Source: a virus
UHGV virus genome: UHGV-0036853
DNA length: 64,000 nucleotides
Direction: 5' to 3' (one strand)
Positions 27,001 to 33,000 of this stretch are shown here, in pieces. Every line of letters begins with the position of its first letter. The first letter of the stretch is position 1. The position numbers are program-made.

Positions 27001-30000
27001 GCAATAAACCCAGGCCCGACGTTGGGAATATACCGGCCAGCATTACTACTGTCAGATCAAGCTCGTTGATAATCCACTTGTACGTTTCAGTTACGTAATG
27101 CAAAACAGAAGGGGACACAGTTCCTCGGACGTGAAATGTATCACCGGCAACCAACATGTACTTACAACCGGCCTTCTTCATGGCGATGGCTGCTTCTTTC
27201 GTTGCTTCCAACTGTATTTCAAGTCTGGAGTTAAGCCCCTCAGCGTTCGTCGTGGAGAACGCATCCCATTTGTGATAGTGGCAGTCAGAAATGACGCCGT
27301 ATGGCAAAGTCATGTGTTTTTCCTTTGTGGTTATTTTGATACAAATTTTAAGAGCAATGAGAAGGTAAACAACTATGCATAACGGTATGTTAGGAATGAA
27401 ACGAGCGTCTTAATATACAAAATTTATAAGTAAGTATATACCTATTTGTTGTGGCGCAACTTTGCTTGTCTGTATGACTAAAAATAAGACAGGATCACTG
27501 TAGAACGCTATGAGAGCTATTTTGAGGAGGCGTAGATTCTATCTACGCCAATATGCGATCTGGAGGGTTACAGCGCGTCAGTGGGCTTTTTACGCGCTGC
27601 GTTTATGCTTATGACGCCAGCTTTTGGACGTGGGTCAACAAGGTTAAGCTCTTCTTCACTGTGGTATTCGAGGTCGAACTCACGTTTTACATGTCTGATG
27701 TAGATTGCGGTGAGCAGGCTATCTTTGGTCAGGAAGTGTCCGTAGGATTTACGGATCACTTCTTCCACCTTTTCGATTTTCTCACCACCCATACAGAGAT
27801 GATTAAACCGGCTGTGTTTCCGCAACATTTCGTCTATTGGACCTGAGTAAACCTTGTCTACTTTCCCAAAACGGATGATTTTCCCTGTGTCTGCGGATAC
27901 AAGGCAAATCAGCTTGTCTGGTGATAAACGATCTCGCCACGTCACACCTGAACGGAGTGTGTTGAAGTAGGGGGCATCCAATCCGATGATCGGTTTACGA
28001 AATGCGAGCAATGGAACGTACCTGATGCAACTGTTTAAATGAAAATTCACACCAGCCTTATCAAGTTTAATTCTGGTTTCGTAGATCGGGCACTTCGCCG
28101 CTATACCGCAGATGTCACAAAGCAACTTCTGCTTATTCAGGTTGGAATTTGATTCGATAGTGTAGGAGCCGTCTTCAAGACGACGAACCCAGCGCGTGCG
28201 TTTTAGATCCATATGTCATTTTTCTGTGATTGTTAGCCGAGGCAACGATAACCCACCAAGTGCGCCGAAGGTAGTAAATGCCTGTTTTAATTATTCACAT
28301 ATCCACAGGATAGATCCTAATAAAGAGATCCATAGATAGATCCTTGTATAGATCAAATAAGATCCCCGATCGCTGTAAGCCGCGCCACGACTGGTCTGAA
28401 GCCATGTTCATGTATGCTGCCAGCGGTAATTGATAGTCTGTCAACGGTTCGCCGTATGCTGCCAACTGTTTTTGGTATGCTGCCAGCGGCAAATCAAGTA
28501 TGCTGTCAGCGGTTGAATGACAAAGGTGTCCACATGTCCACAAAAAATAAAAAAGGTAAAAATAACAAAGAAGTAGAAGATAATCTCGACAACTTTGAAG
28601 AAGGTTCCCTTGAATTGTACACAGGGGAACTTGTCCCTAATAGCAACAATACAGTCCAACCAATTGCGTTGATGCGGCTGGGGTTGTTCGTGCCCACGCT
28701 CAAGGGGACAAAATACAGCAAGCGTAACAAGCCAAATGAGATCGATGCTTCAAAGGAGCTTGTTCAGCTCGAAGTAGCCCGTTCTGAAGGCTATTCCGAT
28801 ATCAAGATAACCGGTCCTCGTCTCGACATGGATCATGATTTCAAAACGTGGGTGGGCGTTGTGCGTTCGCTGGCAGAATACGGCGAACCTAACGGTCGTG
28901 TCGAGTTAAGCATCACGAAATTTGCGAAGTTTTGTGGCTATCCATCGTCACAGATCCGCAAAACACTCCGCGACCGGCTTACAAACAGTCTTTTGAAGAT
29001 CATGCGTACAACTCTGTCTTTCCAGAGAACGTATGAAGAAAAGAACGTCGACGGCTCTAACAAGATCTCGCTTCTGATGGTGCACCTCATCAATAGCGTG
29101 GACTACAACGAGCAGAAAGATACGGTGGTGTTCTATGCAGAACCGAAGCTGGCCGAACTATATCGCTTTGACCATAAGGTTCTTTTGCAGTTAAAGGTTA
29201 TCAATAAGCTACCACGCAAAGAAACAGCACAGGCTCTGTACACCTTCATCGAAAGTCTTCCAACCAAGCCTGCGCCGGTATCGCTTGCTCGATTGCGTGC
29301 GCGACTAAATTTGAGCAGCAGGAATGTCAGCTCGCAGAATCAGACTATACGTAACGGCTTAAAAGCTCTCCAAGATTTGGGCTATCTCGAATACAGCGAG
29401 ATTAAGCGAGGGCGGTCGATCTATATCCAGATTCACAGCCGCAATCCAAAACTTAAAGTCGCACCGCCAAAACCTGAAGACATCGAACCCAAAAAACCAG
29501 ATGAGAAAGCTGGGGAAATTGATGCCAAACAGAACATTATCAACAAGATAACCGAACTTTCGCAGAATTTGACGCCTGAAAATATCAAGATGATTGAGAT
29601 CCTTTCCAATAGTCTCAAACTGCTTTGATATGCTGTCAGCGGTGAAATGTATGCTATCAGCGGCTATTTTCTGAAAAGTATGCTGTGAACGGTTAAAGAT
29701 ATGCTACCAGCGGTATAGTGAGATGAACGTATGCTGTGAGCGGTAAATCATCTATCACCACTCAATGCTCTGTCATACCTCCCCAGTGGTTACTAACCTC
29801 GAAGAGTGCATTCCATATAGGTTTGCGCTCACTAACATTCTATTGCTATTGCGCTGATTGCTTGTAGTGAAAGGCATTTATTGCCTGCTGCTCCCTGATA
29901 GAACGTATGCTGTCAGCGGTGTTTTATTGAGGAATTTTTGTTTGGATATGCTATCAGCGGTAATTAATGGTATATGTCAGACCTTCGTATGCTGCCAGCG

Positions 30001-33000
30001 GTAATTTTGTTCTGGTTATACCCATACCGGTACACATTATTCATGCAATGTCTTAAGTATGCTGTCAGCGGTAAAAAATCGACTAAAGTATGCTGTGAGC
30101 GGTGAGATAGACTCTCGATATGCTATCAGCGGTAGTTGATTGTGTATGCTGTCAGCGGTGACGACTATGAAATATGACTGCGGAACGTTCCGCAGTCAGT
30201 TTGCATTTAGTGTATTTTCTTTAACAGACCCCAAAGTGTTCCGGCTTTTGTAGTCAGTTTTCCTGTTTCTGGATCGTACATACGCCATTCACGCCGCTGG
30301 TGGACGATATACCCATCTTCACGTTCCAGACGCTCAAGAATGCCAGGCTGCTTGAAACCCTTAGCACGCCAGTAGCCGCTTGTTTTCTCGATTTCCAGAC
30401 CTGCCAGTGTTAATGCCATTATCCAACCTCCTTGCAGTCATCGAAAAGGTAGCTTTGCTGAGAAGCGTGAACGCCATAGAAGCCCTTGTATTTGTTGTAT
30501 ACGAAGTGGTCTTCTCCGACGCCGGTTAATTTGCCATTACGGTTTGTGAGATATGGGGATGACAACACTCGATCGTCACGCACAACATAGAACTGGTCGC
30601 CGCTGTCTACGACCATCGCTCCATATGGTGCTTTTATGACGTCGGTAAGAGCGCCATTCTTAACGTCGGCTACAGACATTTCACACTGATAAACAGTGGT
30701 GTCGGCCACAACGATCGAAGAAAGGAACAACAGCGCGAATGGGATGGCCTTCATGCTGCCACCTCTTTGATTACATCAAATGCTGAATTAAATACGAGCA
30801 CGATAGCCAAAGCGTTTATTACTACGTCGTTCACCGGGGAAAAGACTTTACGAATGACACCAGTGAAAATGCAGTCGATGACAAAAGCTATTGACACGAT
30901 GAGTAACAAGTATTCAATAAAAATCTTCATGATAGGTAGATACTAACTTATATAAATTTTACTGTAAACTCACTCAAAAGTGCTGATGCTTAAAATACGC
31001 TCAAGATGTGCGGCATCTTCATCACTGATTTGTTGAGTCTCTTCTACGTACCAACAGTTGCCGTTATGCCAACAAACACCATCATCATCAACCATCACTG
31101 AATCAGCGTCATGACCTGTATATTCAACGAGAATACGCTGGATCAGCGCGTCAGTTTCTTCGTCGTTAAGGCCATCGGCTTTGACCATAAAAAGCGGAAA
31201 CACGTCATAGACAGTGCTGGTAACGATTCGAACTAAAACTCTCATGTGTTTTTCCTTTTGTGGTTAGTGTTTACTTATTTTGTTAGTTACGAATAGGCGA
31301 TCAATCTTCTTGTTTAGGGAAAAACTGTTCAATAACTCTGTCAACGGCTGTGTCTATATGGAGTAGATGCCACACAACCATATCTTTGCTCCCCATGCCT
31401 TGTGTGAATATCACGTCATACTTACGCCATGCGCAGTGGAACCAATATGCTGAGTCATCAATTGGTAAATCCTCTCCCGCCTCTTTGAAGTATTTCAGCA
31501 GCATTGCTTGCTCTGCCGTTGGCGTTGGACCTATTTCCTGAGCGTACATACGGATAAATCGCTGCCAGTCTGTCTCGTCAGGTGTTTGATCTGGTGGGGT
31601 CATTTCGGCGATAGCGTTTCGTAGCTGATGCGCCCAATCAGGTTCAGGAAAGCCTTTTGATACTTCATCATCAATAACACCCAGAGCCGCGTTTGCGGCA
31701 TCGTAGAGTTTCTTAATAGCTGTCATGTTTTCTTATCCTTTTAAACAAATTGTTTTCTTAATAAGATAATTGCGATAAAAAAGGCGTCCAACTGGACGCC
31801 TGAACTTTTTAGGGGAGTTATTTCACTGTAATGAAAGGAGTGTTAGCCCCTTGAGTCATGTACTGCGGTAACTGGCCATTCCATTTATTGATGGCTTCCA
31901 GTTCCATAACGTTCGGGTTTTGACGCAGAGCTTCACCGCGCAGACGAATGGCGTCTGCTTCTGCTTGCGCACGAGCACGGATAGCATCAGCTTCACCATT
32001 AGCCTGTTCACGCAGCATATTCGCCTCAGCTTTACGCTGTTCAACTTCCTGTTGACGTTGCAGAGTACGCTGGTTAGCCGTTACTTTGGCGTTGATAGAT
32101 TCAATGACGGTTTTTGGGTAATCAGGTTTTCCAACCCATGACAGGCTCAGTACCTCAATACCAACCGGAGACATCTCTTTCTGAATATCTTTCAGTGCGT
32201 TGTCCAGCAATTGTGCCTTACCACCGTCGATAAATGAGTCAGTGGTCATACGGCTGGCCAAACGGTTTAGAGAGTCGGCAATTTTCTGACGCAGATCTGA
32301 TTCGGTGATATCGTCTACGCCTTTGCGATAGGTCTGGAACACCGTCGTTACCTTGTCACGATTAACCAGATACGCAACGCCAATTTTGTGACCAATAGCA
32401 GTACCGTCACTCATCTGGAATGTGAACGGCTCGTCGTAGGTCTTCATTTGTTTGAAGGTAGGGAATACGTAAAGTTCGGTGTTAAGACCTGTCCATTGGC
32501 GACCAACGCCAACCACTTCACCAATCCCTTTGTCTTCACCTAATTTGTTTACTTTGATGCCAACGTATCCAGGCTCTACGCGATCACAGCCAGTAAGACC
32601 CATTGTGCAAATAGCCGCCAGAGCAACTGCAAGTAAACCTTTCTTCATTACTTATTTCCCCTTTGCTTTGATTAATGAGTTAATAAACTTACGACCAGCA
32701 ATAAGACCGATTACAGGAGTACCAAAACCAACGATAACTCCAAGCATGACGGCCAAATCACTCTTTGCAGAAATCAGCGACGGAACCAGTAATCCGTAGA
32801 TGAGAGCCACTGAAAGGCCTGTGGCTACTGCCAATAGATAGATTTTGATCATGTGTTTTCCTATGTGGTTGTTATGCGAAAATGATAAGTAAGTACTTAT
32901 ATATTTTCAAGAGATAAAAAAGGCGTCCTGTGGACGCCTTGTGTTTACTCTTCTACTGACTCGGTGGGATTGTCTTTTGATCTCCGGTCGTCGATTGCCT

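What the first reader, a model, noticed from the sequence alone, without database searches (positions are those of the whole stretch)
28413..30200. RepFIB-type iteron replicon inside a phage gene landscape
A RepA-family initiator is preceded by 4 and followed by 12 copies of a 15-bp iteron, closed by a perfect 22-bp palindrome. Together with the partition genes this implies the element can replicate as a low-copy plasmid, i.e. a phage-plasmid lifestyle. The downstream array probably acts in copy control or incompatibility.
Basis: partly seen in the sequence, partly recalled or inferred. Interest (0 to 1): 0.45.

Follow-up and report, generated by a model that had tools for sequence, protein, structure and literature searches.

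The report
P1/RepFIB-type replicon of SSU5-like phage-plasmid

Summary
A 16-bp core (R)TATGCTGYCAGCGGT occurs 17 times around one gene, against about 2 loose matches expected by chance. Twelve lie downstream, all in one orientation, in blocks of 5 and 7. The 22-bp palindrome is perfect.

The gene encodes a Rep_3/WH1 initiator. It is 46% identical to P1 RepA, 50% to IncFIB RepA, 49% to SSU5 RepA and 85-88% to the Klebsiella pKPHS1-type RepA.

The same module (about 99% identical) sits on about 120 circular, non-conjugative plasmids of roughly 110 kb that carry tail, capsid and terminase genes. It is found in 119 of 5,426 complete E. coli genomes and never on a chromosome. It is very probably PlasmidFinder's IncFIB(H89-PhagePlasmid) type.

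The downstream array is best read as an incA-like copy-control and incompatibility locus that works by handcuffing; this is inferred from P1 and FIB experiments. The palindrome is more likely the terminator of the converging phage operon than part of the replicon. The ParA-like gene lies 28 kb away. The finding is already known and of low interest.

The parts
28291..28307 (+). Two tandem DnaA boxes: TTATTCACA (28291-28299) and ATATCCACA (28299-28307)
   Evidence: The first fits TTWTNCACA exactly. The pair aligns with the annotated DnaA site of P1 oriR, cTTATCCACAtTATCCAC. It is conserved in the Klebsiella and Cronobacter relatives.
28311..28371 (.). AT-rich GATC cluster with six Dam sites at 28313, 28327, 28339, 28351, 28361 and 28368; four are AGATCC heptamer-type repeats
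   Evidence: This is the densest GATC cluster in the window: 6 in 60 bp, the next best being 3. Poisson P is about 1e-6 and GC is 30%. It aligns with the five annotated Dam sites of P1 oriR. All six are invariant in the three-way alignment.
28372..28411 (.). GC-rich spacer (GCCGCGCCACGNCTGG) between the GATC cluster and the iterons
   Evidence: GC is 60%. The stretch is nearly identical in P1 oriR and in the relatives.
28412..28513 (+). Five origin iterons (incC-like) at 28413, 28434, 28455, 28476 and 28499, spaced 21/21/21/23. By analogy with P1 they should contain the repA promoter
   Evidence: P1 incC also has five iterons, spaced 21-22 bp, with PrepA inside them. No consensus sigma-70 promoter passed the scan. 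TTGGTA(28472)-N18-AAGTAT is only a positional analogue of P1 PrepA; this is inference.
28534..29628 (+). repA, the iteron-binding replication initiator (364 aa from ATG 28534; PGAP-style models start at 28414 inside iteron 1)
   Evidence: Pfam Rep3_N E = 3.9e-9. PHROG 775 E = 4.6e-133. Identity: 100% to the RepA of E. coli D4 plasmid A, 85-88% to Klebsiella and Cronobacter, about 50% to IncFIB, 49% to SSU5, 46% to P1. AGGTG-N5-ATG is conserved in the relatives. PhiR41_1's annotators use this start.
29629..29744 (+). Control iterons, block 1: five copies that begin directly after the repA stop codon
   Evidence: In P1 the incA array also begins at the repA stop.
29745..29905 (.). Iteron-free spacer of 161 bp inside the downstream array; function unknown
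   Evidence: Partly conserved in Cronobacter and shorter in Klebsiella. There is no Rfam match and no significant RNA structure on either strand (z = -1.2 and -1.0). The motif CAGTGGTTACTAAC is not repeated elsewhere in the window.
29906..30159 (+). Control iterons, block 2: seven copies at wider, irregular spacing (26-70 bp)
   Evidence: Copies 10-12 are missing from phage PhiR41_1 through an 87-bp iteron-to-iteron deletion.
30176..30197 (.). Perfect 22-bp palindrome, probably a bidirectional intrinsic terminator that ends the converging leftward phage operon
   Evidence: The scan finds a terminator-like site on both strands. The RNA hairpin has z = -4.5. It lies 9 nt after the stop codon of the leftward 70-aa ORF. 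Cronobacter and SSU5 have hairpins of different sequence at the same position. The one PhiR41_1 substitution falls in the loop.
30207..30419 (-). Right flank: conserved 70-aa phage gene (annotated Cra-like in Cyrano and SSU5); not part of the replicon
   Evidence: 94% aa identity to SSU5 gp068, while RepA is only 49% identical. PHROG 804.
27568..28212 (-). Left flank: conserved 214-aa phage gene transcribed away from the origin; not part of the replicon
   Evidence: 86% aa identity to SSU5 gp070. PHROG 2105.
58178..58846 (-). ParA/ParF-like type Ib partition ATPase (222 aa), 28 kb from the replicon
   Evidence: Pfam MipZ, AAA_31, CbiA and ParA hits. PHROG 164 'ParA-like partition protein' E = 4e-51. 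PDB ParF 4dzz E = 1.2e-10.
57819..58178 (-). 119-aa ORF whose start overlaps the parA stop; a candidate centromere-binding partner, unverified
   Evidence: No Pfam hit. PHROG 5111, unknown function. No convincing centromere repeats were found nearby.
15537..16130 (-). Element-encoded Dam-family N6-adenine methyltransferase; may bear on the GATC-rich origin
   Evidence: Pfam PF05869 Dam E = 2.2e-38. A functional link to the origin is inference.

Best explanation
Window 28291-30159 is the plasmid-prophage maintenance replicon of an SSU5-supercommunity phage-plasmid of E. coli. It belongs to the P1 oriR/RepFIB family and is very probably the replicon type that PlasmidFinder calls IncFIB(H89-PhagePlasmid).

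Proposed mechanism, by homology with P1 and FIB:
- Host DnaA binds the two tandem boxes.
- RepA monomers fill the five 21-bp-phased origin iterons and open the adjacent AT-rich region. Its six GATC sites would make initiation Dam-dependent and open to sequestration when hemimethylated.
- The same iterons overlie the repA promoter, so RepA represses its own synthesis.
- The twelve iterons that begin at the repA stop codon are the negative-control and incompatibility locus (incA-like). They titrate RepA and pair through RepA with origin iterons in cis or in trans ('handcuffing'), which holds the copy number at about one to a few per chromosome.
- The 22-bp palindrome is not a replicon component. 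It is the terminator of the long leftward phage operon that converges on the array and shields the array from read-through transcription.
- Stable inheritance is completed by a ParF-type ATPase cassette 28 kb away.

What is shown here: the sequence anatomy, the homology, and the exclusively plasmid location of near-identical copies. What is inferred: RepA binding to the iterons, autoregulation, handcuffing, Dam dependence and terminator activity.
For: Anatomy and statistics: 17 clustered iterons against about 2 chance matches, with a 5 + 12 layout.

The five-copy 21/21/21/23 register is identical in Klebsiella and Cronobacter relatives whose RepA is 85-88% identical.

Initiator family: Pfam Rep3_N. 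Identity is 46% to P1 RepA, 50% to the RepA of an IncFIB-typed F-like plasmid and 49% to SSU5 RepA, with long invariant motifs.

The left half of the origin aligns with P1 oriR: 77% identity over 118 nt by blastn, covering the DnaA boxes, the GATC repeats and the GC spacer. P1's record annotates exactly these parts plus incC x5, PrepA inside incC, and incA x9 starting at the repA stop.

Initiator and iteron co-vary. TATGCTGYCAGCGGT is shared by the 85-88% relatives. SSU5, FIB and P1 each have a different repeat: ATCCACTGTAGAGAG, ATATAAGCTGTAG and GATGTGTGCTGGAGGG.

Function in nature:
- RepA is 100% identical in a complete circular 114-kb plasmid.
- 118 plasmid records cover at least 80% of the module, and 180 of 187 matching records are non-mobilizable.
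- In the two such plasmids whose records were read, the only typed replicon is rep_cluster_488.
- 119 of 5,426 complete E. coli genomes carry the module, with 184 places on plasmids and 0 on chromosomes.
- The plasmid backbone carries virion genes.

Literature:
- SSU5 supercommunity phage-plasmids are mostly IncFIB-typed (PMC7969092).
- pECOH89 RepA is 48% identical to pLF82 RepA (PMC3999498). This window's RepA is 47.9% identical to the RepA of Cyrano (OV696614, 108,379 bp, the same length as the E. coli LF82 plasmid record NC_011917).
- In FIB replicons the downstream iteron block alone displaces a resident plasmid, while the upstream block is origin-associated (PMC11983097).

Terminator reading of the palindrome.
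Against: Nothing in the sequence contradicts this reading; the gaps are experimental.
- No sigma-70 consensus promoter for repA passed the scan, so autoregulation rests on analogy.
- No solved structure matches RepA by sequence, and NCBIfam has no model hit.
- The assignment to IncFIB(H89-PhagePlasmid) is indirect. HG530657 and CP003298 were not in the collections, and MOB-suite types these plasmids only as rep_cluster_488.
- The layout differs from P1. All 12 control iterons are in one orientation and are split by a 161-bp spacer of unknown role. There is no adjacent par operon. RepA has about 30 extra N-terminal and 55 extra C-terminal residues.
- The U-tract after the hairpin is weak on both strands.
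Confidence: 0.88

Rival explanations
1. The downstream 12-repeat array is not a copy-control locus. It is either a second origin or the partition centromere, as in F sopC, which is also 12 direct repeats.
For: There are twelve direct repeats, and no centromere repeats were found next to the ParA-like gene. The array is split into two blocks with a conserved-looking spacer.
Against: The repeats have the same 16-bp core as the origin iterons, so they are RepA sites and not sites for a different protein. No DnaA box or AT-rich GATC region accompanies them. In the homologous P1 and FIB replicons the equivalent arrays are experimentally negative-control and incompatibility loci (PMC11983097). The parA gene is 28 kb away.
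Confidence: 0.04
2. The replicon is a silent or decayed relic, like the weakly functional FIB copy of F. The element is then maintained by another system, for example its own DnaB-like helicase, primase and Pol III alpha acting at an unidentified origin.
For: The element encodes its own helicase, primase and Pol III alpha. F's FIB replicon is known to be poorly functional because of small sequence changes (PMC11983097). Origin iteron 2 in this window has 3 mismatches.
Against: In the two plasmids of about 110 kb whose typing was read, this is the only typed replicon. RepA is intact and 100% identical in a complete circular plasmid. The full 5 + 12 architecture is kept at 98-99% identity in about 120 plasmids. 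The five-iteron register, DnaA boxes and GATC sites are conserved out to Klebsiella and Cronobacter.
Confidence: 0.05
3. The 22-bp palindrome is a functional part of the replicon. It would be a RepA-dimer operator or handcuffing boundary, comparable to the inverted half-iteron operators of mini-F or pPS10, and not a terminator.
For: By eye, each arm resembles the 3' half of the iteron: CTGCGGAA against CAGCGGTA, 6 of 9. In SSU5 the hairpin at the same place includes the terminal iteron. The U-tracts are weak.
Against: The site lies 550 bp downstream of repA and not at its promoter. It lies 9 nt from the stop codon of a converging gene. The Cronobacter relative has the same iterons but a hairpin of unrelated sequence whose arm matches an SSU5-type iteron at 14 of 15 positions, a site its own RepA should not recognise. 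Structure is therefore what is conserved, not sequence.
Confidence: 0.1

Closest known systems
Bacteriophage P1/P7 plasmid-prophage replicon (oriR - incC - repA - incA)
   Same: The order of parts is the same: two tandem DnaA boxes, a cluster of GATC/AGATCC repeats, a GC-rich spacer, five iterons at about 21-bp spacing, repA, then an iteron array starting at the repA stop codon. The left half of the origin aligns at the DNA level, 77% over 118 nt. RepA is 46% identical. Both replicons serve a temperate phage that lives as a plasmid.
   Different: The iteron sequence differs (TATGCTGYCAGCGGT against GATGTGTGCTGGAGGG), so no cross-incompatibility is expected. There are 12 control iterons, all direct and in two blocks, against 9 in mixed orientation in P1. 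No parAB-parS operon follows the array; a converging phage operon and a hairpin follow instead. RepA is 78 aa longer. The phage backbone is SSU5-like (annotated with lambda-type tail genes: tape measure, minor tail protein L), not P1-like.
RepFIB replicon of IncF plasmids (P307, F, pO157)
   Same: RepA is 50% identical over about 320 aa. repA is flanked by origin-associated upstream iterons and control-associated downstream iterons, and a DnaA site is present (PMC11983097). The C-terminal tail beyond the P1-like core is present in both.
   Different: The iteron sequence is different, and FIB iterons lie partly in the opposite orientation. The start codon is ATG with a fair Shine-Dalgarno sequence, where FIB uses a CTG start (PMC11983097). 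Isolates typed as carrying both IncFIB and IncFIB(H89-PhagePlasmid) are reported (PMC8764355), which fits compatibility.
IncFIB(H89-PhagePlasmid) / pECOH89 / p09EL50 replicon of E. coli SSU5-like phage-plasmids; MOB-suite rep_cluster_488
   Same: This is almost certainly the same replicon. pB20 (111,741 bp, the same length as pECOH89) carries it at about 99% identity. pECOH89 RepA is reported as 48% identical to pLF82 RepA (PMC3999498), and this RepA is 47.9% identical to the RepA of Cyrano (OV696614, 108,379 bp, the same length as the LF82 plasmid record). The host range is the same: Escherichia, Shigella and E. albertii.
   Different: No direct alignment to HG530657 was possible because the record is not in the collections. 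In this window origin iteron 2 has one more mismatch than in the other E. coli copies.
IncFIB(pKPHS1) / 'IncpKPHS1' replicon of Klebsiella SSU5-like phage-plasmids
   Same: RepA is 85% identical. The iteron core, the five-iteron origin register, the DnaA and GATC sites and the flanking genes are the same.
   Different: There are 9 downstream iterons, not 12, and the spacer is shorter. The published description lists only four downstream iterons and no upstream ones (PMC6735626).
Replicon of Salmonella phage SSU5 / pHCM2 / pLF82 (Cyrano)
   Same: The genomic slot is the same, between the 214-aa and 70-aa phage genes (86% and 94% aa identity). The DnaA/GATC/GC-spacer part of the origin is shared (77% nt identity up to window 28372). 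repA is flanked by iterons in both.
   Different: RepA is only 49% identical. The iteron is different (ATCCACTGTAGAGAG) and occurs in mixed orientation. The specificity cassette (iterons + repA + iterons, window about 28410-30175) has been exchanged.

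Membership tests
Rep_3 (PF01051) iteron-binding plasmid initiators | Winged-helix WH1 domain detectable by the family profile above its curated threshold | tested here: met
   Rep3_N E = 3.9e-9, 37.5 bits against a cut-off of 22.4, residues 118-239
Rep_3 (PF01051) iteron-binding plasmid initiators | Two-winged-helix (WH1-WH2) fold as in RepE, pi and pPS10 RepA | not tested
   A sequence search of the PDB found nothing at E <= 1. No structure prediction was run, because 46-50% identity to characterised initiators already settles the family.
Rep_3 (PF01051) iteron-binding plasmid initiators | Directly repeated binding sites (iterons) next to the rep gene | tested here: met
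   17 copies of one 16-bp core flank the gene. Actual binding cannot be tested here.
P1 oriR-type replicon | RepA homologous to P1 RepA | tested here: met
   46% identity over 278 aa, E = 5e-78, with many invariant columns
P1 oriR-type replicon | Origin made of tandem DnaA boxes, a cluster of Dam (GATC) heptamers and five iterons phased at about 21 bp | tested here: met
   checked against the annotated features of AF234172
P1 oriR-type replicon | repA promoter embedded in the origin iterons (autoregulation) | tested here: inconclusive
   No + strand promoter passed the consensus scan in 28412-28533. Only a weak positional analogue was seen.
P1 oriR-type replicon | Control iteron array (incA) immediately downstream of repA | tested here: met
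   The first downstream iteron starts at 29629, the base after the stop codon. There are 12 copies, against 9 in P1.
P1 oriR-type replicon | parA-parB-parS operon directly following incA | tested here: not met
   A hairpin and converging phage genes follow the array. The only ParA-like gene is at 58178-58846.
P1 oriR-type replicon | Same iteron specificity as P1 (incompatibility group Y) | tested here: not met
   The iteron core differs from GATGTGTGCTGGAGGG.
RepFIB / IncFIB (F, P307) incompatibility group | RepA homologous to FIB RepA | tested here: met
   50.6% identity over 322 aa to the RepA of an IncFIB-typed plasmid
RepFIB / IncFIB (F, P307) incompatibility group | Shared iteron sequence, and hence mutual incompatibility with F/P307 FIB | tested here: not met
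   The FIB repeats (ATATAAGCTGTAG-type) differ from TATGCTGYCAGCGGT. Co-occurrence of the two types in isolates is reported (PMC8764355). Incompatibility itself cannot be tested here.
RepFIB / IncFIB (F, P307) incompatibility group | CTG start codon of rep | tested here: not met
   The start is ATG at 28534, preceded by AGGTG. The CTG start is described in PMC11983097.
SSU5-supercommunity phage-plasmids | Extrachromosomal circular element of about 100-115 kb carrying SSU5-like virion, DNA-metabolism and plasmid-maintenance genes | tested here: met
   The window is collinear at 82-98% identity with E. coli D4 plasmid A, apart from several indels and gaps. That plasmid is annotated with tail, tape-measure, capsid, portal and terminase genes. 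The flanking proteins are 86-94% identical to SSU5. The copies are found only on plasmids. The virion genes themselves lie outside this window.
SSU5-supercommunity phage-plasmids | Production of infectious virions | not testable with these tools
   PhiR41_1 (98.4% identical replicon) is deposited as a phage with MG1655 as host. Some SSU5-like phage-plasmids are mitomycin-inducible and one E. coli example was not (PMC9600943).

The most novel reading that the evidence does not exclude
The long, strictly direct 12-iteron control array may act as a recombination-prone copy-number rheostat. Iteron-to-iteron deletions or expansions would change RepA titration and handcuffing strength. The 87-bp, three-iteron loss seen only in the phage-propagated relative PhiR41_1, against about 120 plasmids that keep 12, would be one such event. 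The result would be a reversible shift in the copy number of the phage-plasmid and in the dosage of any cargo genes such as blaCTX-M. A 2026 preprint title links a phage-plasmid to copy-number heteroresistance in E. coli, but I could not read it and do not know its mechanism.
Probability: 0.12. Interest if true: 0.45.

Novelty: already known. Interest (0 to 1): 0.12.

Why it matters
It matters little as a discovery. This replicon family is in the standard typing databases, and the phage-plasmid nature of its carriers is published.

Its practical value is in annotation:
- It gives a base-level map of the origin, the five origin iterons, the likely true repA start and the twelve control iterons for a replicon carried by about 2% of complete E. 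coli genomes. Some of these plasmids carry ESBL genes.
- It flags that automated repA models begin inside iteron 1.
- It identifies the 530-bp control array as the obvious reagent for incompatibility-based curing of these elements.

Tried and rejected
- Rfam scan of 27500-31000 at E <= 1: no match.
- NCBIfam: no hit for RepA or the flanking ORFs.
- PDB sequence search with RepA: nothing at E <= 1.
- Sigma-70 scan: no convincing repA promoter.
- Folding of the 161-bp iteron-free spacer on both strands: not better than shuffles. Its motif CAGTGGTTACTAAC is not repeated in the window beyond chance. I therefore dropped the idea of a small RNA or a second binding-site family there.
- Repeat search around the ParA cassette: no credible centromere.
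- Direct comparison with the PlasmidFinder reference pECOH89 (HG530657) and with p09EL50 (CP003298): not possible, because the records are absent from the collections.
- The 2026 heteroresistance preprint could not be opened.
- I chose not to spend the large protein-database searches or a structure prediction. The 46-50% identity to experimentally characterised initiators already decides the family.
- I considered and rejected three readings: the array as centromere or second origin, the replicon as a dead relic, and the palindrome as a RepA operator (see the rival explanations).

Full report
**1. The observation**

The sequence at 28000-30600 contains one large + strand ORF. Around it the motif TATGCTGYCAGCGGT recurs. 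Allowing 3 mismatches, the 64-kb window holds 22 matches, against 2.4 +/- 1.6 in dinucleotide shuffles; no shuffle reaches 22. Seventeen matches are + strand copies packed at 28413-28513 and 29629-30159.

The upstream set is 28413, 28434, 28455, 28476 and 28499, spaced 21/21/21/23. Its position is nonetheless a real iteron position:
- Klebsiella (L009) and Cronobacter (L010) relatives show five copies with exactly the same spacing, and their copy 2 is perfect.
- Near-identical E. coli plasmids have copy 2 at 2 mismatches.

The downstream set has exactly twelve copies, all on the + strand. Five lie at 29629-29744 and seven at 29906-30159, separated by a 161-bp iteron-free spacer. Information content shows a 16-bp conserved core, with one extra purine 5' of the 15-mer and nothing conserved beyond it. 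The palindrome GACTGCGGAAC|GTTCCGCAGTC (30176-30197) is perfect over 22 bp.

**2. What the gene is**

From ATG 28534 the ORF encodes 364 aa.
- It matches Pfam Rep3_N (WH1 domain of iteron initiators) at E = 3.9e-9, above the gathering threshold.
- It matches PHROG 775 at E = 4.6e-133. That family's label, 'replication helicase', is a misnomer for P1-type RepA.
- By tblastn it is 100% identical to the RepA of E. coli D4 plasmid A and 85-88% identical to Klebsiella pKPHS1-type and Cronobacter pH322_1 proteins.
- It is 50% identical to the RepA of plasmids typed IncFIB, 49% to SSU5 RepA and 46% to P1/P7 RepA. Long invariant blocks appear in the five-way alignment.

Automated annotations start the gene at 28414 (404 aa). 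That start lies inside iteron 1, and the extra 40 residues are translated iterons (MLP... repeated). Several points favour 28534: the conserved AGGTG-N5-ATG, the choice of PhiR41_1's annotators, and the point where homology to P1, FIB and SSU5 begins. This is likely but not proven.

**3. The rest of the origin**

- 28291-28307 holds two tandem DnaA boxes, TTATTCACA and ATATCCACA.
- 28311-28371 is 30% GC and holds six GATC sites. This is the densest cluster in the window (the next best has three sites; Poisson P about 1e-6). Four sites sit in AGATCC repeats.
- 28372-28411 is a 60%-GC spacer.

This stretch aligns directly with P1 oriR, at 77% over 118 nt by blastn. In the P1 GenBank record the aligned features are annotated as the DnaA site, five Dam sites, five incC iterons with PrepA embedded, repA, and nine incA iterons that begin at the repA stop. 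The window therefore has the full P1-type layout with a different iteron. A consensus scan found no sigma-70 promoter for repA. TTGGTA(28472)-N18-AAGTAT is only a positional analogue of P1 PrepA, so autoregulation is inferred.

**4. Initiator and iteron co-variation, and a cassette swap**

Relatives with 85-88% RepA identity keep the TATGCTGYCAGCGGT core. SSU5, FIB and P1 each use a different repeat.

Against SSU5, the flanking phage proteins are 86% (214 aa, left) and 94% (70 aa, right) identical. Nucleotide similarity runs from the left flank through the DnaA/GATC/GC-spacer region to window 28372 and resumes at 30209. Between those points RepA is 49% identical and the iterons are unrelated. 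What differs between SSU5/pLF82-type and this type of phage-plasmid is therefore the specificity cassette: iterons, repA, iterons. The host-factor part of the origin is shared.

This fits published statements that plasmid-like genes vary more than phage genes in these elements (PMC7969092). It also fits the report that pECOH89 RepA is 48% identical to pLF82 RepA (PMC3999498).

**5. Where it lives**

The 2-kb module matches 187 PLSDB plasmids. In 118 of them one place covers at least 80% of the module, at about 95-99% identity or better. Of the 187, 180 are typed non-mobilizable, and the hosts are mostly Escherichia, Shigella and E. albertii.

The module occurs in 119 of 5,426 complete E. coli genomes, at 184 places on plasmids and none on chromosomes. 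The two examples whose records were read are circular plasmids of about 110 kb whose only typed replicon is MOB-suite rep_cluster_488. The backbone of one of them (D4 plasmid A) carries tail, tape-measure, capsid, portal and terminase genes together with nrdAB, thyA, dfr, dam, dnaE, primase, a DnaB-like helicase and ligase.

The window is collinear with that backbone from about record position 39.8 kb to 111 kb. Within it I confirmed Dam, RecA-like, integrase-family, DnaB-like, primase-like and Pol III alpha genes.

One relative, PhiR41_1, is deposited as a phage with MG1655 as host. pB20 (111,741 bp, the length reported for pECOH89) carries the same replicon with the same 5 + 12 iterons. Taken with the 48% figure above, the replicon is very probably PlasmidFinder's IncFIB(H89-PhagePlasmid). 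I could not align it to HG530657 directly.

The Klebsiella version is typed IncFIB. It has been described as an iteron replicon, 'IncpKPHS1', with only four downstream iterons noted (PMC6735626). Typing tools are said to include the SSU5-type (IncFIB) replication genes (bioRxiv 10.1101/2025.09.12.675607).

**6. How it most likely works**

By homology with P1 and FIB, the steps would be:
- DnaA plus RepA monomers on the five phased iterons open the AT-rich GATC region.
- Methylation of the six GATC sites conditions initiation. The element even encodes its own Dam-family enzyme at 15537-16130.
- RepA represses its own promoter.
- The twelve downstream iterons titrate RepA and pair with origin iterons (handcuffing). 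This sets a low copy number and exerts incompatibility.

For FIB, the downstream block alone displaced a resident FIB plasmid, whereas the upstream block did not (PMC11983097). None of these steps was or could be tested here.

Because the iteron differs from F/P307 FIB, P1 and SSU5, I expect compatibility with all three. Isolates typed as carrying both IncFIB and IncFIB(H89-PhagePlasmid) are on record (PMC8764355).

**7. The palindrome**

The palindrome lies 9 nt beyond the stop codon of the leftward 70-aa gene (30207-30419), which is the last gene of a long leftward operon. Several observations bear on its role:
- The scan calls it terminator-like on both strands.
- As RNA it folds far better than shuffles (z = -4.5).
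- PhiR41_1's single substitution in it falls in the loop.
- Cronobacter and SSU5 have strong hairpins of different sequence at the same position.
- The Cronobacter hairpin arm is a 14-of-15 match to an SSU5-type iteron, although that plasmid's own iterons are the TATGCTG type. In SSU5 the hairpin includes the terminal iteron. The window's right arm shares CCGCAGT with that iteron.

I read this as a relic of a replaced SSU5-type array that has been kept as a hairpin. The conserved property would then be structure, that is, termination or insulation of the array from converging transcription, and not RepA binding. The weak U-tracts leave room for the rival reading that the palindrome is a protein-binding site.

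**8. Partition**

The only ParA-like gene in the window is at 58178-58846 on the minus strand. It has Pfam MipZ, AAA_31, CbiA and ParA hits, PHROG 164 and a ParF match in the PDB at 1e-10. It is followed by a 119-aa ORF of unknown family. I found no centromere repeats.

**9. Verdict**

The feature is a textbook iteron replicon of a catalogued type in a well-described family of phage-plasmids. Novelty is 'already known' and interest is low.

The least ordinary points are:
- the strictly direct, bipartite 12-iteron array;
- its contraction to 9 copies in the one phage-propagated relative, while about 120 plasmids keep a full-length array;
- the evidence for exchange of the specificity cassette with a relic iteron left at the junction.

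Noticed in passing
window 27026-27031 (compare L004 15305-18497): Relative to E. coli D4 plasmid A, the window lacks about 3.2 kb, 1.2 kb left of the origin. The SbcC-like AAA ATPase is gone. The SbcD-like metallophosphoesterase and a 247-aa neighbour are truncated, leaving the overlapping ORF fragments 26538-26948 and 26777-27313.
   Followed up: partly
window 32945-34018 (-): The RecA-like gene here is intein-free (357 aa; Pfam RecA E = 2e-42). Close relatives carry a 2,340-nt version annotated as a LAGLIDADG homing endonuclease, apparently an intein-containing allele.
   Followed up: partly
L002 (phage PhiR41_1) 3631-4075, compared with window 30058-30145: PhiR41_1 has 5 + 9 iterons. An 87-bp deletion between downstream iterons 9 and 12 removes three control iterons. 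About 120 plasmid records keep the full 701-702-bp array. The effect on copy number is unknown.
   Followed up: partly
window 28410-30175, compared with L011 (SSU5): There is a replicon specificity-cassette swap. The flanking phage genes and the DnaA/GATC half of the origin are 77-94% conserved with SSU5. RepA is only 49% identical and the iterons are unrelated.
   Followed up: yes
L010 (Cronobacter pH322_1) 3072-3104; window 30187-30203; L011 3075-3107: The hairpin next to the 70-aa gene in Cronobacter is built from an SSU5-type iteron (14 of 15) although that plasmid uses TATGCTG-type iterons. The right arm of the window's palindrome aligns with SSU5's terminal iteron (CCGCAGT shared). This looks like a relic of a replaced iteron array.
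   Followed up: partly
window 28446-28464 and 28871-28889: A 19-nt inverted repeat (18 of 19) links origin iteron 3 plus its left spacer to repA codons for SLAEYGEP. The coding copy also scores as a minus-strand iteron-like site (28866-28880, 3 mismatches). The spacer part is not conserved in Klebsiella or Cronobacter, so the repeat may be lineage-specific or due to chance.
   Followed up: partly
window 28414-28533: Automated gene models (PGAP, 404 aa) start repA at an ATG inside iteron 1. The added N-terminus (MLPAV...MLPTV...MLPAA) is translated iterons, a systematic annotation artefact across this plasmid family.
   Followed up: yes
window 29745-29905: A 161-bp iteron-free spacer splits the control array. 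It is partly conserved in Cronobacter (for example CCCCAGTGGTnACTAAC and GGTTTGCnCTCACTAAC). It has no Rfam hit and no significant RNA fold. A weak leftward promoter-like site lies at 29776-29747.
   Followed up: partly
window 15537-16130 (-): The element encodes its own Dam-family methyltransferase (PF05869, E = 2e-38) alongside an origin with six clustered GATC sites. A functional link is speculative.
   Followed up: no
window 38018-41536, 54229-56832 (-): The element carries its own Pol III alpha, a primase-like gene and a DnaB-like helicase. This implies a separate, unidentified lytic-replication system beside the RepA/oriR maintenance replicon.
   Followed up: no
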